A stretch of 64,000 bases of DNA from Dehalococcoidia bacterium (GCA_965207365.1 OZ242281.1:68003-132002), one strand, 5' to 3'; positions 10,406-19,847 are shown, counted from the stretch's first letter. Numbers and translations are program-made. Notes: a model not told the origin generated them from the letters alone.

Positions 10406-12652
10406 TTATGCTCGCCAACGGCTGAGGCGGAGGGCGTTCGTGAGGACTGAGAGGGAACTGGCGACCATGGCTAGGGCTGCGGCGATGGGCTCGAACTGGC
10501 CTCTGTCTCCGAAGAGCCAGTTGAGGCCTCCTGGGACTCCTCCGACGGCGTCGAAGATGGGTACGGCGAGCCCTGCGGCGAGCGGGATGAGCAGGATGTT
10601 GTAAGAGAAGGCGAAGGCCAGGTTTTGTCGGATGACAGATCGGGTGGCTCTGGCCAATAGGACTGCCTGGGCGGCACGGCGAGGATCGGACTGCATCAGC
10701 GCGACTTGAGCGGTCTCGAGAGCGATGTCGGAACCGGTGCGCATAGCAAGGCCAAGGTCGGCTTGCGCGAGCGCCGGGGCGTCATTGACTCCGTCGCCGA
10801 CCATCGCTACCCGGCGATCTCTGGTCTGATGCTCTGCGACGAGCGTTGCCTTCTCGGTTGGCAGTGCGCCGGCGTGATAGCTCGCGATTCCTACTGCTTC
10901 ACTGATAGCGCGGACAACTGGCTCGGTGTCGCCGCTGATCAGCACGGAGTTCACATCACGTGAGTTCAGCAACTTCACTGCCTCACTTGCCCCTGGCTTT
11001 GGTTGATCGCTGAGCCGGATCGTTCCGATCAGACTGCCTTCTCGGGCGATGTAGACGGGTGTCGAGACCGACTCTGAGTCGTCGATGGTGATTGAGTGCT
11101 CAGACATCAGGCGTTCGTTGCCGACGACAATGGACTGGCCGTCAACGATGGCGGTCGCGCCGCTTCCTGGTCTGCTGCGAAAGTCGACCGCGTTGCCGAG
11201 TTCCAGACCGCGATCCTGGGCGTGAGCCACGATGGCTGCTGCCAGCGGATGCTCCGATTCCTGTTCGACTGTGGCGGCGAGTCGGATGAGCTCGTCATCT
11301 TCGACGCCGTTTGGCTGGACTGACGTCACTTCGTGTCGTCCGCTGGTGAGCGTCCCGGTCTTGTCCCAGACGACGGTGTCAATCTTGCCTGCCGATTCGA
11401 GCGCTTCGGCGTCACGGAAGAGAATGCCGAGTCTCGCAGCTCGGCCCGAGCCTGCAGCGACGGCTGCGGGGGTCGCCAGTCCGAGGGCGCATGGGCAAGC
11501 AACGACCAGCACGGCGACGGCGCTGACGACGGCTGAGGTCCAACTGGCGTTGCCCCCAAACACCGCCCAGGCAATGAATGTGATCACTGCGATCGCGACG
11601 ACAATCGGGACGAAGACGCCGGCGATCTGGTCGGCGAGGCGTTGGATTGGCGCTTTCGAGGCCTGAGCGCGTTCCACTGTTGCAGTGATTCGAGCCAGCG
11701 CGGTCGCCGATCCGACTTGTGTTGCCTGGTAGGTGAATGCGCCCTCGGCATTGATAGTGCCAGCGAAGACCGTGTCACCGGGTACCTTCGTGACATGGAC
11801 GCTCTCGCCGGTAAGCAGGGCTTCATCGAGGGAACTCTCGCCGCTGACGACGACGCCGTCGACCGCGACCTGTTCTCCGGGTCGAACGCGGACAGCGTCG
11901 CCGACCTGGACATCGGATGCGGGGATGTCTCGCTCGAGGCTGCCTTCGACGACTCGCGCAGTTTGTGGGGCGAGTTCCAATAGGCGGGTCAACGCCGCCG
12001 CCGCGCGCAGGCGGACGCGGGCTTCCAGTGCTCGGCCGAGGCTGACAAAGCCGACGATGATCAGGGCGGTATCGAAGAAGACGTCTCGTGAAGCATCGGC
12101 GCCTTCGAGTGCTGCAGGCGCCAGCGCCGAGACCGTGCTGTATCCCCATGCGGCGGCGACGCCGAGGACGATCAAGGTGTCCATGTCGGTGGTGCGTCGT
12201 GCGGCGGCTCGTGCGGCGTTTCGGAGCATCGGCCAGACGCCCCAGGCCAGTGTTGGGGTGGCCAGGACGAAAAAGACCGGAAAGACGGTGTCCGGGTTCC
12301 AATTGATGTCGGCCCAACGGTTGGCCTGCATCGCGAAGAAGATGCCCCATCCGACGATCAGCGCGGGAACAGCCCTCAGCAGTTGGGGGCGAATCTCACG
12401 GATGCCTGGTTGCTCGTTCTCATCGTCGGAGTCGATCAACTCGTAGCCGGCGCCGGAGATAGCTGCGCTCAGCATTGGTTGTTCAACGGGCCGATCGATT
12501 TCAATGATTGCCCGTCCGGCGATGAAATCAGCCGTGGCCTCGGAGACGCCATCGACCTTGACCAGCGCCCGCTCGACTCGCCTGACGCAGGCGGCGCAGT
12601 GCATGCCTTCGATCTGTATGGTCTGGGTCTGGCGGTCGGTCGCGGTGGTCAT
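10406..12652 (-). CDS. copA: P1B-type heavy-metal (Cu+) translocating ATPase
   Basis: HMA domain GMHCAAC, TGES, CPC, DKTGT, SEHPLA and GDGVNDAP motifs, plus Cu+-type YN and MxxSS. TATGCT lies 7 nt before ATG 12652. Confidence 0.92.
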   Translation of the reverse strand: MTTATDRQTQTIQIEGMHCAACVRRVERALVKVDGVSEATADFIAGRAIIEIDRPVEQPMLSAAISGAGYELIDSDDENEQPGIREIRPQLLRAVPALIVGWGIFFAMQANRWADINWNPDTVFPVFFVLATPTLAWGVWPMLRNAARAAARRTTDMDTLIVLGVAAAWGYSTVSALAPAALEGADASRDVFFDTALIIVGFVSLGRALEARVRLRAAAALTRLLELAPQTARVVEGSLERDIPASDVQVGDAVRVRPGEQVAVDGVVVSGESSLDEALLTGESVHVTKVPGDTVFAGTINAEGAFTYQATQVGSATALARITATVERAQASKAPIQRLADQIAGVFVPIVVAIAVITFIAWAVFGGNASWTSAVVSAVAVLVVACPCALGLATPAAVAAGSGRAARLGILFRDAEALESAGKIDTVVWDKTGTLTSGRHEVTSVQPNGVEDDELIRLAATVEQESEHPLAAAIVAHAQDRGLELGNAVDFRSRPGSGATAIVDGQSIVVGNERLMSEHSITIDDSESVSTPVYIAREGSLIGTIRLSDQPKPGASEAVKLLNSRDVNSVLISGDTEPVVRAISEAVGIASYHAGALPTEKATLVAEHQTRDRRVAMVGDGVNDAPALAQADLGLAMRTGSDIALETAQVALMQSDPRRAAQAVLLARATRSVIRQNLAFAFSYNILLIPLAAGLAVPIFDAVGGVPGGLNWLFGDRGQFEPIAAALAMVASSLSVLTNALRLSRWRA

Positions 12653-12695
12653 TGGTTGCAGCATATGTCGCAGGCGCAGCGGATAGGCTGACGCC

Positions 12696-13919
12696 ATGCC
12701 ACGTGTCATGTTGCTGATTCCCACCGCTTCCTACCGCGCGCCCGACTTTATGTCGGCAGCCGACCAACTTGGTCTCGATGTGGTCGTTGCATCAGACATC
12801 GATCAGCCATTGGCCGACATGTATCCCGGTCGCTGGCTGACGCTCCCGTATCACGACCTTGAAGAAGGCGCGCGAGCGGTTGCGCGATATGCCGATCGAT
12901 TTCCGCTCGACGCGGTCGTGGCAGTTGATGATCCGGGGACAGTGCTCGCTGCATATGCCAGCTCGGAGCTGCAACTGACGGGCAATAGCCCTGAATCGGT
13001 GATCGGCACGAGAGACAAGTCGGCCTTGCGGCGTGCGTTGGACGCGCATGGCGTTCGATCTCCCTGGTGGCGAGTATTCCGATTTGACGATCCATCTCCG
13101 GCAGCCGACATCGACTATCCAGTAGTGATCAAGCCGCTGGGACTGAATGGATCTCGCGGAGTGATGCGGGCAAATGATCCGGTGTCATTTGAACGCGCGC
13201 TAGCACGGTTGGCTCGGATGCTTCGATCAAACTCGGCAAAAGAGGAATGTGGCGATCTGGTTGATCGCTACCTGGTTGAGGGGTTTATCCCGGGTGTCGA
13301 GGTTGCGCTCGAAGGGTTGCTAAGAGATGGAGAGCTACACACACTCGCCGTGTTCGACAAGCCTGATCCATTGGATGGTCCGTTCTTTGAAGAGACCATC
13401 TATGTGACTCCGTCACGGCTGCCAGACGAGGATGTGCAGGAAGTGGTTGAGACGGCTCGGCGTTCGGCGGAGGCGTTGGGTTTGAGTGACGGTCCGCTGC
13501 ACGCGGAACTGAGACTGAATGAGGCAGGCGCGTGGCCGGTGGATGTTGCGGCGCGGACGATTGGCGGGCTGTGTGCTCGGACGTTGCGATTCGGCGCGGG
13601 GATGTCGCTAGAGGAGATTGTCTTGCGCCACGCGATCAACGCGCCGCTGGAGACGTTGAACCGAGAGGCGACCGCGGCTGGAGTCATGATGATGCCGATC
13701 GTGGGTCGGGGCCGAATCCGTGCGATTGTCGGTCTGGACGAGGCGGCGGCAGTTCCGTTGATTGAGGACATCGAGATGGAGGCGCGGGTCGGCGACATGC
13801 TGATCCCGCTGCCGGAGGGCGCCGACTATCCCGGTTTCATATTCGCAAGAGGCGAGGATCCGGCTGAGGTGGAGTCGGCATTGAGAGAGGCCTGGTCGAA
13901 GATCGCGTTTGTTCTGTGA
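12696..13919 (+). CDS. ATP-grasp domain ligase
   Basis: RDK, YPVVIKP, GSRGV, YLVEGFIPGVEVALEG, HAELR and DVAARTIGG motifs. Divergent from copA. Confidence 0.88.
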   Translation: MPRVMLLIPTASYRAPDFMSAADQLGLDVVVASDIDQPLADMYPGRWLTLPYHDLEEGARAVARYADRFPLDAVVAVDDPGTVLAAYASSELQLTGNSPESVIGTRDKSALRRALDAHGVRSPWWRVFRFDDPSPAADIDYPVVIKPLGLNGSRGVMRANDPVSFERALARLARMLRSNSAKEECGDLVDRYLVEGFIPGVEVALEGLLRDGELHTLAVFDKPDPLDGPFFEETIYVTPSRLPDEDVQEVVETARRSAEALGLSDGPLHAELRLNEAGAWPVDVAARTIGGLCARTLRFGAGMSLEEIVLRHAINAPLETLNREATAAGVMMMPIVGRGRIRAIVGLDEAAAVPLIEDIEMEARVGDMLIPLPEGADYPGFIFARGEDPAEVESALREAWSKIAFVL

Positions 13920-19107: not shown

Positions 19108-19226
19108 GTCATACCCGCTCTTGTCGCGGAGCCTGCCTCCGGCTTGAACGGGGGTATCTCGCGGATTCGGGCGCAGAAGTCGGTGCAGTACGCAGCGAGA
19201 TTGCCGCGCCGGAGCGCGGCAATGAC
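19108..19226. repeat. REP-like pair, family B (GTCATACCCGCG..GCGGGTATCTC / GAGATT..GCAATGAC)
   Basis: Inverted pair between nfuA and the radical SAM gene. The left unit contains an inserted hairpin module. Confidence 0.75.
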
Positions 19227-19238
19227 GAAACTGAGGAG

Positions 19239-19847
19239 CTACTTCTTGGAGGGCTTGTAGTAGGGGTTGTCGCCGGACTGGTGGTCCGTGATGTCGACGA
19301 GTTCCTCGATTTCGGGGAGGGCTTCCTTGACGGCGACTTCGATGCCCTGCTTGAGCGTGACGTTGGCCATGCCGCAGCCCTGGCAGCCTCCGCCCATTTC
19401 GATGTAGGCTCGTTTGCCGCGCAGTTCAAGCAGTTGCACGAAGCCGCCGTGGGCGGCGATCTGGGGATTGACCTGCTCGTCGAAGATGCGCTGGATTTCT
19501 TGCGCCAGCGGATCTCGCCAGACGGGATTCGGGTTGTGGAACTCGAGGCCGGAGACGTTGGGGCCCTTGAATTCGTAGTGGACGTTGGTGCCGCGCAGAT
19601 CTTCGATGTGTTCGCCCTCGACATAGAGGAGGAAGTCGGGATACTGCACCGTGGCGTCGCCATCCGGTTCGATGCCCTTCTCGACGATGGTCAGGACGTG
19701 CTCGAAGCCTTCCGAGGTACGCCCGGTGATCTTGAGGCGCAGTCCGGCGACCTCCTCCGGATAACCGGTCAAGACCTCTAACAGTTTTGAGCGTGCCACA
19801 TCCGAGAATGTGATACCCAGTTCGCCTGCATCTACGTTGGTGGTCAT
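19239..19847 (-). CDS. nfuA: Fe-S biogenesis protein NfuA (degenerate A-type domain + NifU-C)
   Basis: INP-like VNPQIAAHGG, GGGCQGC, TLKQGIE and DITDHQSGDNPYY motifs. Confidence 0.9.
   Translation of the reverse strand: MTTNVDAGELGITFSDVARSKLLEVLTGYPEEVAGLRLKITGRTSEGFEHVLTIVEKGIEPDGDATVQYPDFLLYVEGEHIEDLRGTNVHYEFKGPNVSGLEFHNPNPVWRDPLAQEIQRIFDEQVNPQIAAHGGFVQLLELRGKRAYIEMGGGCQGCGMANVTLKQGIEVAVKEALPEIEELVDITDHQSGDNPYYKPSKK

What the first reader, a model, noticed from the sequence alone, without database searches (positions are those of the whole stretch)
10406..19847. Candidate uncharacterised selenium-dependent metal(loid) pathway: CUAEP radical SAM + ATP-grasp ligase + deacylase + MFS + NfuA + Cu-ATPase
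Seen: within 9.5 kb lie copA, a stand-alone ATP-grasp ligase (divergent from copA across 43 bp), an MFS, an HDAC-type amidohydrolase, the Cys-Sec-tail radical SAM and an Fe-S carrier directly upstream of it. Known: the arsinothricin enzyme ArsL is a non-canonical radical SAM that uses a C-terminal vicinal-Cys tail to hold As(III) while forming a C-As bond from SAM. Inference: the Cys-Sec tail could bind a metal(loid) for alkylation, the ATP-grasp enzyme could ligate the product, the deacylase could mature or recycle it, and the MFS could move it. The genes are not one operon, so linkage is unproven.
Basis: inference. Interest (0 to 1): 0.8.

Follow-up and report, generated by a model that had tools for sequence, protein, structure and literature searches.

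The report
Conserved radical-SAM, ligase, iron-carrier trio
Three of the six flagged genes (a selenium-containing radical SAM enzyme, an amino-acid-type ATP-grasp ligase and an iron-sulfur carrier) form a widespread gene trio that I found undescribed in the papers searched, while the copper pump, the transporter and the deacylase are only local neighbours.

Summary
All six genes are present as described. The radical SAM gene is a real selenoprotein. Its in-frame TGA is followed by a covarying SECIS-like hairpin, and selA, selB, selD and tRNA-Sec are all in the genome.

The proposed six-gene metal(loid) pathway is only partly supported. Orthologs of the ATP-grasp ligase lie beside CUAEP-tail radical SAM genes in 38 of 80 loci from many phyla. 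They also co-occur genome-wide: 104 of 107 radical-SAM-positive genomes in a 401-genome Chloroflexota sample.

An Nfu-type carrier (31 of 80) or a YggX-type Fe(II)-trafficking protein (22 of 80) is the third member; no locus holds both. HDAC, MFS and CopA orthologs appear only in 4 to 6 loci, all from the same class as the window.

New observations:
- In genomes without the radical SAM gene, the ligase still sits next to Nfu or YggX (12 of 12 loci).
- All module-linked helpers examined carry a C-terminal lysine motif (PSKK in the window), which helper homologs in ligase-free Chloroflexota lack.

Best reading, by inference: the module is centred on the helper protein and serves iron or Fe-S handling. 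The ligase acts on or docks to the lysine tail, and the ArsL-like enzyme works through its flexible Cys-Sec arm. Substrate and product are unknown.

The parts
17631..19010 (-). CUAEP-tail radical SAM selenoprotein, 459 aa. It has an N-terminal Rossmann (B12-binding-like) domain, a radical SAM core, and a flexible C-terminal arm carrying Cys433-Sec434. Core member of the module.
   Evidence: NF040546 489.3 bits, PF04055 + PF02310. AF2 model with mean pLDDT 85.4, falling to 58, 41 and 26 from residue 431 on; the closest folds are AprD4, OxsB, MgmA, TsrM and MiaB.
18486..18509 (-). CxxxCxxC motif (C168, C172, C175), the ligands of the radical SAM [4Fe-4S] cluster.
   Evidence: Invariant in all 17 aligned homologs.
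17709..17711 (-). In-frame TGA read as selenocysteine (residue 434 of the C-U-A-E-P motif).
   Evidence: In some searches the same codon is TGA in 60 and TGC/TGT in 19 of 79 homologous loci.
17678..17696 (-). SECIS-like hairpin: a 7-bp stem, with one A-C mismatch in the window, and a loop containing CAGUU, starting 15 nt after the UGA.
   Evidence: 79.5% of cells are paired, with 84 compensatory cells against 35.0 +/- 5.0 shuffled (0/500). Slid registers pair in at most 60.7%. In the best register Sec forms average 6.2 of 7 pairs and Cys forms 3.9 of 7.
19239..19847 (-). NfuA-type Fe-S carrier, 202 aa. It has a Cys-free A-type-like N-domain and a NifU domain with CxxC. It is the only NifU-domain gene found in the genome. 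Core member of the module.
   Evidence: PF01106 69.7 bits; TIGR03341 103.5 bits, below its 269 cut-off; one match in 3.46 Mb; alignment.
19242..19268 (-). C-terminal lysine tail of the Nfu protein (NPYYKPSKK). It extends five residues beyond the point where E. coli NfuA ends.
   Evidence: K201 is invariant in 18 of 18 aligned module-linked Nfu proteins. E. coli NfuA ends ...EHSYY; present or absent according to whether the genome has the ATP-grasp.
12696..13919 (+). Stand-alone ATP-grasp ligase of the L-amino-acid-ligase type, 407 aa. Core member of the module, here 3.7 kb from the radical SAM gene.
   Evidence: PF13535, PF18603, PF18130; the best solved relative is 3VOT, LAL BL00235, 229.8 bits over the full length; synteny and co-occurrence.
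16077..17219 (+). HDAH-type (HDAC-family) amidohydrolase, convergent with the radical SAM gene. A neighbour specific to this lineage, not a conserved member.
   Evidence: PF00850, 300 bits; 5G0X and 1ZZ0 HDAH, about 347-371 bits; 6 of 80 loci, all close relatives.
14589..15977 (-). MFS transporter resembling oxalate/formate or monocarboxylate carriers. A neighbour specific to this lineage.
   Evidence: 4 of 80 loci.
13916..14434 (+). 172-aa ORF with hydrophobic stretches and no family. It is absent from the closest syntenic loci L008-L010.
   Evidence: no family; only a weak hit in L012.
10406..12724 (-). Cu(I)-type P1B ATPase CopA (GMHCAAC and CPC motifs), divergent from the ATP-grasp. A neighbour specific to this lineage.
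   Evidence: 5 of 80 loci (L008-L010, L012, L050); none beside the 22 further ATP-grasp loci.
19898..21652 (+). CocE/NonD-family (S15) hydrolase, divergent from nfu. A neighbour specific to this lineage.
   Evidence: 6 of 80 loci.

Best explanation
Shown. The functional unit is not the six-gene set. It is a conserved module of three genes:
1. the CUAEP-tail radical SAM (seleno)protein;
2. an L-amino-acid-ligase-type ATP-grasp enzyme;
3. an iron-handling helper, either an Nfu-type Fe-S carrier (as here) or a YggX-type Fe(II)-trafficking protein.

Some lineages add a Fmt-like formyltransferase or a DUF169 protein. HDAC, MFS, CopA and CocE/NonD are cargo of this lineage only.

Inferred. The module is centred on the helper and serves iron or Fe-S handling rather than Cu or As detoxification. 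The ATP-grasp ligase recognises the helper's conserved flexible C-terminal lysine tail. The tail is ...NPYY-x-P-S-K-K on Nfu and a Gly-rich linker ending ...P-x-K-K on YggX. I propose that the ligase forms, with ATP, an amide between an amino-acid-type carboxylate and that tail, following the logic of RimK/S6, LysX/LysW and tubulin-tyrosine ligase.

The radical SAM enzyme is the nearest sibling of ArsL. I propose that it cleaves SAM at its [4Fe-4S] cluster and uses its mobile Cys-Sec arm to hold or to quench the group that it makes or tailors. The helper also keeps that oxygen-sensitive cluster supplied.

Sec is inserted with the help of the hairpin just downstream of the UGA. The identity of the ligated group and the final role are unknown.

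My odds: about 0.85 that the trio is one functional module and that HDAC, MFS and CopA are not part of it; about 0.4 for the helper-centred mechanism.
For: Synteny.
- The ATP-grasp ortholog (40-89% identity, full length) lies in 38 of 80 radical SAM loci. These come from Chloroflexota, Acidobacteriota, Actinomycetota, Gemmatimonadota, Planctomycetota, Rokubacteria, Nitrospirota, KSB1 and Pseudomonadota.
- Among the 46 loci with at least 5 kb on both sides, it is within 5 kb in 24. Its orientation is convergent in 24 loci, tandem downstream in 7 and upstream in 7.
- Nfu is present in 31 of 80 loci, YggX in 22, both in 0, and either helper in 53.

Genome-level co-occurrence in 401 Chloroflexota genomes.
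- Both genes in 104, radical SAM only in 3, ATP-grasp only in 27, neither in 267.
- ATP-grasp scores are bimodal: at least 339 bits, or at most 191 bits.

The helper is tied to the ligase.
- In 12 of 12 examined genomes with the ATP-grasp but no radical SAM, the ligase is directly next to Nfu (9) or to tandem YggX plus a Fmt-like gene (3). In the one such locus whose flanks I annotated (L090), they are unrelated genes.
- In 10 genomes where the radical SAM and ATP-grasp genes are unlinked, the helper sits with the radical SAM in 5 and with the ATP-grasp in 5.
- Of 131 ATP-grasp-positive genomes, 69 have a high-scoring YggX. Of the other 62, 59 have an Nfu-domain gene.

The lysine tail.
- It is present in 18 of 18 aligned Nfu proteins (K201 invariant) and in 18 of 18 YggX proteins of radical SAM loci.
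- It is present in 12 of 12 helpers of ATP-grasp-only loci.
- It occurs on two different Nfu architectures, PF01521+PF01106 and PF08712+PF01106.
- It is absent from 0 of 18 Nfu-domain proteins and 0 of 13 YggX-type proteins taken from genomes where no ATP-grasp was found. That set includes one NfuA-type protein ending NPYYRR and two full-length YggX proteins ending ...PEPTNEE.
- E. coli NfuA lacks the extension.

Other support.
- On a quick tree of 58 ATP-grasp sequences the helper type switches several times. Starred branches force at least 4 changes for Nfu. This indicates that the two helpers are interchangeable.
- The radical SAM is the nearest sibling of ArsL. Its Cys-Sec dyad lies at the start of a low-confidence, presumably mobile, arm.
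- ArsL uses its Cys-rich tail to hold its substrate (abstract; passages).
Against: - No direct evidence of any modification or binding exists.
- The characterised members of the LAL family listed in the review ligate free amino acids (review PMC6920838, passages). The RimK and LysX relatives among solved structures match the ligase only weakly, at about 30 bits.
- E. coli YggX also ends in ...DKK, although E. coli K-12 has no ortholog of this ligase (best match 30 bits). A terminal KK is therefore not in itself a mark of the ligase.
- 22 of 80 radical SAM loci show none of the partners in their flanks. Many of these are short contigs, but 12 have at least 5 kb on both sides, and 8 of those 12 are Cys forms.
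- 3 of 107 radical-SAM-positive genomes showed no ATP-grasp.
- Genomes in the phylum sample are related, so the 2x2 table overstates independence.
- The tree is the quick one, not the careful search.
Confidence: 0.4

Rival explanations
1. Product-centred, ArsL-like pathway. The radical SAM enzyme transfers the 3-amino-3-carboxypropyl group of SAM onto a soft atom held by its Cys-Sec arm, giving a methionine-like amino acid. The ATP-grasp ligates that amino acid into a free dipeptide, which the Fmt-like enzyme N-formylates in some lineages. Nfu or YggX only supply or repair the radical SAM cluster.
For: - ArsL is the second-best family for the radical SAM (242.1 bits).
- ArsL makes an ACP radical and holds As(III) on its Cys tail (abstract; passages).
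- The closest solved relative of the ligase is BL00235 (229.8 bits), listed as making Met-Gly and Met-Met.
- The recurrent formyltransferase is most like Met-tRNA formyltransferase (TIGR00460, 138-140 bits, below its cut-off).
- The radical SAM and the ligase co-occur in 104 of 107 genomes.
- From recall: NfuA restores the clusters of LipA and MiaB.
Against: - 27 of 131 ATP-grasp-positive genomes lack the radical SAM. Yet in all 12 such genomes examined the ligase stays directly beside Nfu or YggX and the lysine tail is kept.
- An ATP-grasp enzyme has no cluster to be served.
- No exporter, resistance gene or ars gene recurs.
- The wide, mostly single-copy distribution looks like housekeeping rather than antibiotic production.
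Confidence: 0.3
2. The first reader's six-gene selenium-dependent metal(loid) pathway. The radical SAM alkylates As, Sb or Cu held on the Cys-Sec tail. The ATP-grasp ligates the product, the HDAC-type enzyme matures or recycles it, the MFS moves it, and CopA belongs to the same response.
For: - In the window and its close relatives, HDAC and MFS lie between the radical SAM and the ATP-grasp. CopA is divergent from the ATP-grasp. The ATP-grasp/CopA pair is also kept in L050.
- Haft's preprint notes that CU motifs recur in proteins that handle heavy metals (passage).
- An HDAH-type enzyme would fit as the eraser of an acyl-lysine mark, if one exists. That such enzymes remove acyl groups from N-epsilon-acyl-lysine is recalled.
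Against: - HDAC is in 6 of 80 loci, MFS in 4 and CopA in 5, all from one class.
- CopA is beside none of the 22 further ATP-grasp loci.
- Unrelated genes occupy the same gap in L026 and L050.
- The genes face different ways and cannot be one operon.
- No arsenic or antimony genes recur.
Confidence: 0.05
3. Shared regulation only. The three genes belong to one oxidative-stress or iron regulon and stay together for co-expression. There is no direct biochemical hand-off between the ligase and the helper.
For: - From recall: Nfu and YggX are both reported as protective of Fe-S clusters under oxidative stress.
- The module was not found in the small-genome Dehalococcoidia families sampled (f3 0 of 9, f5 0 of 5, f6 0 of 5). 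It is common in groups with larger genomes.
- Gene order and orientation vary.
Against: - Co-regulation alone does not explain the convergent lysine tail on three different helper architectures, nor its loss where the ligase is absent.
- It does not explain why Nfu and YggX exclude each other (0 of 80).
- It does not explain why the link persists across at least nine phylum-level groups, judged from the record titles.
Confidence: 0.1

Closest known systems
ArsL (RCCLKC-tail radical SAM, arsinothricin biosynthesis; NF040542)
   Same: It is the nearest sibling family (242.1 bits). Both have a CxxxCxxC radical SAM core with an N-terminal Rossmann-type domain. Both have a C-terminal tail carrying adjacent soft-ligand residues on a flexible arm.
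   Different: The tail is C-U/C-A-E-P, not RCCLKC, with two soft ligands rather than three, and the score is below ArsL's 450-bit cut-off. There is no arsM, arsQ or ars operon nearby. The conserved partners are an ATP-grasp ligase and Nfu or YggX. Whether SAM is cleaved to an ACP radical is untested.
L-amino acid ligases BL00235 (3VOT) and BacD (3VMM)
   Same: The domain set is the same: ATPgrasp_N, ATP-grasp_4 and LAL_C2. The match to BL00235 is full-length, 229.8 bits.
   Different: It forms a separate orthologous group, with 339-621 bits to its own profile against at most 191 bits for paralogs. It is linked to iron-handling proteins rather than to antibiotic clusters. Its substrates are unknown and may include a protein tail.
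E. coli NfuA and YggX
   Same: The window protein has the NfuA layout: a Cys-free A-type-like domain plus a NifU CxxC domain. Module-linked YggX proteins match PF04362 over positions 1-87.
   Different: - The window protein scores below the NfuA equivalog cut-off (103.5 against 269.35 bits).
- It carries a five-residue x-P-S-K-K extension that E. coli NfuA lacks.
- Many module-linked YggX proteins add a 20-35-residue Gly-rich linker before a terminal ...K-K or ...R-K.
- E. coli YggX does end in KK.
Protein-tail ATP-grasp ligases (RimK/S6, LysX/LysW, tubulin-tyrosine ligase; recalled)
   Same: As in those systems, an ATP-grasp enzyme is genetically tied to a small protein bearing a conserved flexible C-terminal tail.
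   Different: This ligase is of the LAL type, not the RimK/LysX type (about 30 bits to those). The tail is basic (Lys) rather than acidic (Glu). No modification has been shown.
Diphthamide pathway (Dph2 ACP-radical transfer, then ATP-dependent amidation; recalled) and the thioredoxin reductase GCUG arm (recalled)
   Same: Both are possible models. The first pairs an ACP-radical step with an ATP-dependent amide-forming step. The second is a mobile C-terminal Cys-Sec redox arm.
   Different: There is no sequence relationship to Dph2 or Dph6, nor to thioredoxin reductase. These are analogies only.

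Membership tests
CUAEP/CCAEP-tail radical SAM (seleno)protein, NF040546 | Score at or above the curated cut-off of 500 bits | tested here: inconclusive
   The score is 489.3 bits with U read as C and 482.3 bits in the genome search, 11-18 bits short. The same-genus genome G348 scores 465.5 bits. This is still the best family by 247 bits. The window's clade lacks a variable segment that other members have (alignment columns about 160-178).
CUAEP/CCAEP-tail radical SAM (seleno)protein, NF040546 | C-terminal C-[U/C]-A-E-P motif | tested here: met
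   The sequence reads WFC-TGA-AEPT. The same motif is in 78 of 79 homologous loci; L077 reads SEP.
CUAEP/CCAEP-tail radical SAM (seleno)protein, NF040546 | Radical SAM CxxxCxxC cluster motif | tested here: met
   C168, C172 and C175 are invariant in 17 of 17 sequences. PF04055 scores 44 bits.
Bacterial selenoprotein | A SECIS hairpin downstream of the UGA, plus selA, selB, selD and tRNA-Sec in the genome | tested here: met
   The hairpin shows covariation. selA scores 521.1 bits, selB 329, selD 349.4 and tRNA-Sec 66.4, all above their cut-offs.
ArsL, NF040542 | Score of at least 450 bits and an RCCLKC tail | tested here: not met
   The score is 242.1 bits and the tail is CUAEP. The protein may work like ArsL, but it is not ArsL.
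ArsL, NF040542 | Cleavage of SAM to an ACP radical and formation of a C-As bond | not testable with these tools
   This needs anaerobic enzymology, measuring methylthioadenosine against 5'-deoxyadenosine.
L-amino acid ligase (ATP-grasp) | The three-domain LAL architecture | tested here: met
   PF18130, PF13535 and PF18603 are all above their cut-offs. The full-length match to 3VOT scores 229.8 bits.
L-amino acid ligase (ATP-grasp) | ATP-dependent synthesis of a dipeptide from free amino acids | not testable with these tools
No NCBIfam equivalog is reached: BacD scores 51 bits against a cut-off of 850.
NfuA, TIGR03341 | Score of at least 269.35 bits | tested here: not met
   The score is 103.5 bits. 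The protein is NfuA-like in layout but is not the equivalog.
NfuA, TIGR03341 | A degenerate A-type N-domain plus a NifU domain with CxxC | tested here: met
   Residues 1-110 contain no Cys. The motif GGGCQGCG is at residues 152-159. PF01106 scores 69.7 bits.
Copper P1B-type ATPase, TIGR01511 | Score of at least 397 bits, an HMA domain and a CPC motif | tested here: met
   The score is 531.6 bits and PF00403 scores 48.4 bits. GMHCAAC and ACPCALG are visible in the sequence.
Protein-tail ATP-grasp ligase systems (RimK, LysX/LysW) | The ligase belongs to the RimK/LysX family | tested here: not met
   The RimK and LysX structures match at only about 30 bits, over a short stretch. The resemblance is one of logic, not of membership.
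Protein-tail ATP-grasp ligase systems (RimK, LysX/LysW) | The ligase modifies the tail of its partner protein | not testable with these tools
   Only co-occurrence of the tail and the ligase is shown.

The most novel reading that the evidence does not exclude
Nfu-type Fe-S carriers and YggX-type Fe(II)-trafficking proteins in Chloroflexota, Acidobacteriota and several other phyla carry a lysine 'swinging arm'. A dedicated LAL-type ATP-grasp ligase acylates that arm after translation. A Cys-Sec-armed, ArsL-like radical SAM enzyme makes or tailors the attached group. The result would be a previously unknown prosthetic arm for iron or Fe-S trafficking. In the window's lineage, the adjacent HDAH-type lysine deacylase would then be its eraser.
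Probability: 0.2. Interest if true: 0.85.

Novelty: new variant of a known kind. Interest (0 to 1): 0.7.

Why it matters
The CUAEP-tail radical SAM family is widespread. A 2022 preprint calls it uncharacterised, and my two motif searches found no later paper on it.

Its fixed partners turn out to be an amino-acid-type ligase and Nfu or YggX. That gives the family a biological setting in iron and Fe-S handling rather than in arsenic chemistry. It also gives YggX, whose mechanism has stayed unclear as far as I recall, two candidate enzymatic partners.

The lysine tail that appears and disappears together with the ligase is a concrete hypothesis. It can be tested by mass spectrometry in cultured Ktedonobacteria.

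If ArsL-like ACP-radical chemistry is confirmed, this would be the second family of canonical-fold radical SAM enzymes with that non-canonical reactivity. It would be the first to use selenocysteine.

Tried and rejected
Steps that led nowhere:

1. Complex prediction. I submitted the ATP-grasp alignment, ATP and Nfu residues 110-202. The verdict was 'no answer': scores 0.55, 0.51 and 0.56, but one control with chain 1 replaced scored 0.45. I do not use this for or against binding.
2. Folding the window's own post-UGA stretch alone was not significant (z = -0.39). The case for a SECIS rests on the comparative count.
3. Hairpin register A (16-22 paired with 27-33) was rejected: 60.7% paired, no better than shuffles. 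Register B was kept.
4. An Rfam scan of 9000-23000 at E <= 0.1 gave 0 matches.
5. The promoter and terminator scan gave no more sites than shuffles did, so operon borders remain unknown.
6. The sequence search of PDB with the radical SAM profile gave only weak hits (at most 25.4 bits). The fold search gave generic class-B-like radical SAM folds, which do not reveal a substrate.
7. A RiPP reading (radical SAM plus ATP-grasp acting on a precursor peptide) was considered and dropped. In most adjacent pairs the intergenic gap is only about 50-300 bp, and the only recurrent small ORF is YggX. ORFs under 90 aa were not clustered, so very small peptides could have been missed.
8. The literature search on YggX tails returned nothing useful. 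I saw the search listing only.

Rows dropped before counts:
- L067 (a Sec form, tail out of register) was left out of alignment A3.
- L080 has no ORF in my radical SAM cluster, so it is missing from the tail and TGA counts (79 of 80 loci).
- L017 was too short downstream.
- ATP-grasp rows under 90% coverage were left out of the tree (58 rows kept).
- Hits under 50% query coverage were left out.

What I saw of each paper:
- 10.1101/2022.07.06.499078: one passage.
- 10.1101/2024.02.01.577332: abstract and opening text.
- 10.64898/2026.04.29.721666: six passages.
- PMC6920838: four passages.
- All others: search listings only.

Supplements were not opened. Those of the ArsL papers may hold family networks that include CUAEP-tail proteins.

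'Not in print' rests on these searches of the held library only: 'cuaep' (2 papers, 1 relevant), 'ccaep' (10 papers, 1 relevant), 'atp-grasp'+'yggx' (0 papers) and 'atp-grasp'+'nfua' (0 papers).

Recalled and not checked here:
- NfuA repairing the LipA and MiaB clusters.
- The RimK, LysX/LysW and tubulin-tyrosine ligase precedents.
- The thioredoxin reductase GCUG arm, and Dph2 and Dph6.
- The general bacterial SECIS consensus.
- HDAH activity on acetyl-lysine.
- The Nfu and YggX stress phenotypes.

Unpublished genomes (flagged by the tool): G038, G173, G344, G272 and G227 enter only the tallies. Without them the 2x2 table is 103 / 3 / 25 / 265 of 396. No sequence from them was fetched or shown.

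Full report
OBSERVATION

- CopA, 10406-12724, minus strand. TIGR01511 531.6 bits, cut-off 397.
- A stand-alone ATP-grasp enzyme, 12696-13919, plus strand. PF18130 + PF13535 + PF18603, the domain set of L-amino acid ligases.
- An unannotated 172-aa ORF, 13916-14434.
- An MFS transporter, 14589-15977, minus strand.
- An HDAC-family amidohydrolase, 16077-17219, plus strand. PF00850 300 bits. The closest solved relatives are bacterial HDAH enzymes.
- The radical SAM gene, 17631-19010, minus strand.
- An NfuA-like gene, 19239-19847, minus strand.

A CocE/NonD hydrolase follows at 19898-21652, and glpK-glpD precede at 7091-10204.

Under table 11 the radical SAM frame stops at TGA 17709-17711, right after ...WFC. 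Read through, it continues U-AEPTGDQLAPL... for 25 more residues. Its best family is NF040546, the CUAEP/CCAEP-tail radical SAM (seleno)protein, at 489.3 bits. That is just under the 500-bit cut-off. The next family is ArsL at 242.1 bits.

IS THE TGA SELENOCYSTEINE?

Yes, on four grounds.

1. The genome is a single 3.46-Mb contig, 96.8% complete. It has selA (521.1 bits), selB (329 bits), selD (349.4 bits, itself with an in-frame TGA) and tRNA-Sec (66.4 bits). All are above their cut-offs.

2. Of 79 homologous loci where the codon could be read, 60 have TGA and 19 have TGC or TGT at this position. All sit in the same W-[FY]-C-x-[AS]-E-P context.

3. The window plus 59 Sec-type loci align without gaps (L067 was dropped as out of register). 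In them a 7-bp stem, columns 16-22 with 28-34, is paired in 79.5% of cells against 64.0 +/- 1.4% in shuffles (0 of 500 reach it). It has 84 doubly changed cells against 35.0 +/- 5.0 (0 of 500). The covariation score is 0.441, against at most 0.218 for every slid register.

4. The loop CAGUU is present in 55 of 60 Sec forms but only 2 of 19 Cys forms. Those two, L076 and L079, still keep the stem, as expected for recent Sec-to-Cys changes.

A single-sequence fold of the window's own stretch is not significant by itself (z = -0.39).

WHICH GENES BELONG TOGETHER?

I fetched 80 loci encoding relatives of the radical SAM protein (40-77% identity), each with up to 10 kb on either side. They come from species-representative genomes of many phyla. 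I asked which window genes recur (tblastn, at least 50% query coverage):

| Gene | Loci of 80 |
|---|---|
| ATP-grasp | 38 |
| Nfu | 31 |
| HDAC | 6 |
| CocE/NonD | 6 |
| CopA | 5 |
| MFS | 4 |

The last four appear only in L008-L013, whose radical SAM is at least 73% identical to the window's. CopA also appears in L050, another locus labelled Dehalococcoidia.

I then clustered all ORFs of at least 90 aa without prior choice. Apart from antisense shadows, three further recurrent neighbours emerged:
- A roughly 110-aa YggX-type Fe(II)-trafficking protein (PF04362, about 130 bits). It is often coupled to the radical SAM start by a 4-bp overlap. It is in 22 of 80 loci by tblastn.
- A Fmt-like formyltransferase (PF00551) in 16 of 80 loci, 15 of them together with YggX.
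- DUF169 (PF02596) in 10 of 80 loci.

Nfu and YggX never occur in the same locus (0 of 80). One or the other is present in 53 of 80, and at least one of ligase, Nfu or YggX in 58 of 80.

Among the 46 loci with at least 5 kb on both sides, the ATP-grasp is within 5 kb in 24. Over all loci it lies downstream and convergent in 24, downstream in tandem in 7, and upstream in 7. Adjacency kept across changing orientation argues for function rather than operon hitch-hiking.

Where the pair is pulled apart, the inserted genes are unrelated. L026 has an enoyl-CoA hydratase. L050 has a DNA methylase-HNH gene and an XhoI-type endonuclease. This weakens the idea that HDAC and MFS, which fill the same gap in the window's lineage, belong to the pathway.

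GENOME-LEVEL CO-OCCURRENCE

The sample was 401 Chloroflexota genomes.
- 107 have the radical SAM at E <= 1e-30.
- 131 have the ATP-grasp ortholog. Its scores are bimodal, 339-621 bits against at most 191 bits.
- 104 have both, 3 only the radical SAM, 27 only the ligase, and 267 neither.

Relatedness inflates any P-value, so I give the counts only. Five genomes flagged as unpublished enter these tallies. Without them the table is 103 / 3 / 25 / 265.

THE HELPER PROTEIN IS TIED TO THE LIGASE, NOT ONLY TO THE RADICAL SAM

I fetched the ligase locus from 12 of the 27 ligase-only genomes. In all 12 the ligase is directly adjacent to Nfu (9) or to two tandem YggX genes plus a Fmt-like gene (3). In the one locus whose flanks I annotated (L090), they hold unrelated genes: RuBisCO, phosphoribulokinase and a fumarate-reductase-type flavoprotein.

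In 10 genomes the radical SAM and the ligase are unlinked, either up to 1.9 Mb apart on one contig or on different contigs. There the helper, with or without the Fmt-like gene, sits with the radical SAM in 5 and with the ligase in 5. For G233 the YggX gene beside the radical SAM is seen.

Of the 131 ligase-positive genomes, 69 have a high-scoring, full-length YggX. Of the other 62, 59 have an Nfu-domain gene (read off). The three exceptions have the ligase at a contig edge.

In the window's own genome the Nfu gene next to the radical SAM is the only NifU-domain gene, and there is no YggX.

A SHARED LYSINE TAIL

All 18 aligned module-linked Nfu proteins end ...T-[DN]-H-x-x-G-x-[ND]-P-[YF]-x-x-x-x-K(-K), with the lysine invariant. 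The window protein ends NPYYKPSKK.

The tail sits on two different Nfu architectures, A-type-like + NifU and Nfu_N + NifU.

The 18 YggX proteins of these loci also carry a lysine-rich C-terminal end...P-S-K-K...P-R-K-K or ...P-R-K in most, with other Lys-containing ends in a few (...PPPRKG...PPQKKA...QKSKS). In many it follows a 20-35-residue Gly-rich linker with internal S-K-G-G repeats.

The helpers of the 12 ligase-only loci keep the tail, 12 of 12.

Controls came from genomes in which no ligase was found.
- Of 18 Nfu-domain proteins, 0 have the tail. They are short single-domain or fused forms, plus one NfuA-type protein ending NPYYRR.
- Of 13 YggX-type proteins, 0 have it. Two full-length ones end ...PEPTNEE, ten short ones end right after the helical core, and one ends ...TATPEG.
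- G138 has the radical SAM but no detected ligase, and its YggX keeps the tail.
- E. coli NfuA stops at ...EHSYY, without the extension.

There is a counter-example. E. coli YggX ends ...PEDKK, although E. coli K-12 has no ortholog of the ligase (best 30 bits). A terminal KK is therefore older than, and not dependent on, the ligase. What stands out is that Nfu proteins acquired a YggX-like end exactly where the ligase occurs, and that the end is lost in ligase-free Chloroflexota.

On a quick maximum-likelihood tree of 58 ligases the helper type changes several times. Starred branches force at least 4 changes for Nfu and 2 for YggX. Ten changes are needed in all, against 22.7 in shuffles. For example, Acidobacteriota ligases split according to helper type. 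This fits two interchangeable helpers, though taxonomy is confounded with the label.

WHAT THE ENZYMES LOOK LIKE

The AlphaFold2 model of the radical SAM protein is confident (mean pLDDT 85.4). It has an N-terminal Rossmann domain and a radical SAM barrel. Confidence falls to 58, 41 and 26 from residue 431 on, so the Cys433-Sec434 dyad lies at the base of a presumably mobile arm.

The nearest solved folds are AprD4, OxsB, MgmA, TsrM and MiaB. No close sequence relative has been solved.

ArsL is the nearest sibling family. It cleaves SAM to a 3-amino-3-carboxypropyl radical and binds arsenite on its RCCLKC tail (abstract; passages).

The ligase's closest solved relative is BL00235 (229.8 bits over the full length), listed in a review as making Met-Gly and Met-Met.

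It is a striking coincidence that the closest characterised relatives all act on methionine or its carbon skeleton: ArsL, BL00235 and, for the Fmt-like partner, Met-tRNA formyltransferase (138-140 bits, below its cut-off). This is a lead, not a test.

INTERPRETATION

Shown: the radical SAM, the LAL-type ligase and Nfu or YggX form a module that is conserved across phyla. HDAC, MFS, CopA and CocE/NonD are neighbours in this lineage only.

Inferred: because the ligase keeps the helper and the tail even without the radical SAM, the helper is more than a cluster donor. I commit, at about 0.4, to a helper-centred mechanism. In it the ligase recognises and probably acylates the lysine tail, or extends the C-terminus. 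The ArsL-like enzyme makes or tailors the attached group using its Cys-Sec arm, in the service of iron or Fe-S handling.

The main rival, at about 0.3, is a free-metabolite pathway: an ACP-type amino acid, then a dipeptide, with the helper only feeding the cluster. It explains the enzyme homologies well. It does not explain the ligase-helper pairs that lack a radical SAM.

Co-regulation alone gets about 0.1, and the original six-gene metal(loid) pathway about 0.05. The remainder is for explanations not yet thought of.

COMPARISON AND NOVELTY

The radical SAM family is catalogued (NF040546). Its curator called it uncharacterised in 2022, and my two motif searches found no later paper on it. No paper in the searched library mentions ATP-grasp together with YggX or with NfuA.

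The window's copy is an ordinary member of its clade. What is new is the module and the tail. I rate it a new variant of a known kind, namely ArsL-like tail-armed radical SAM systems. If the tail is indeed modified, it would be categorically new.

Noticed in passing
L005 (G000:C1:365562-366503): The genome's selD has one in-frame TGA inside the match, so SelD itself appears to be a selenoprotein here.
   Followed up: no
window 19011-19238: The spacer between nfu and the radical SAM gene is 228 bp here but about 30 bp in the closest relatives (L008-L010). It starts with a GC-rich hairpin just after the nfu stop. No Rfam family matches.
   Followed up: partly
L050:8481-9983 and L050:11528-13294: A DNA methylase-HNH gene and an XhoI-type restriction endonuclease flank the radical SAM gene, one on each side. 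They separate it from nfu and from the ATP-grasp. A restriction-modification system has landed inside the module.
   Followed up: partly
L061:12829-13617 (-): This Nfu protein has a long Gly- and Cys-rich C-terminal extension in which the tail motif (PYYQPAKGG, QPAKGG, TPAKG) is repeated several times.
   Followed up: no
L094, L095, L096 (G351, G383, G271): Two YggX genes stand in tandem between a Fmt-like gene and the ATP-grasp, in genomes with no radical SAM. The upstream copy is divergent (about 33-36% identity to the query).
   Followed up: no
L076 and L079: These two Cys-form radical SAM genes (TGT) still carry the SECIS-like stem and the CAGUU loop, which suggests recent Sec-to-Cys replacement.
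   Followed up: partly
L032, L041, L048 (labelled Acidimicrobiia): Cys-form radical SAM genes are followed within about 85-126 bp by a DrrA-type ABC ATPase. No ligase or helper lies within 10 kb. This may be a separate sub-context of the family.
   Followed up: no
G320:C3: One genome carries two copies of the ATP-grasp, each with its own adjacent Nfu-domain gene (near 1.209 Mb and near 0.307 Mb), but only one radical SAM gene.
   Followed up: no
L011:10001-12015: The match to the radical SAM protein spans 2015 bp instead of about 1380, so the gene may carry an insertion near its 5' part in this genome.
   Followed up: no
window 7091-10204: glpK and glpD lie upstream of copA. The copA-glpD-glpK order is kept in L008-L010 and L012, and copA-glpD in L050. 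This fits plain vertical synteny.
   Followed up: partly
L139, L140 and L128-L130, L132, L135-L137: Many Chloroflexota carry a NifU domain fused to a C-terminal Cys-rich domain resembling a Rieske or zinc-ribbon fold (frames of about 290-390 aa). These proteins lack the lysine tail, even in genomes that have the module.
   Followed up: no
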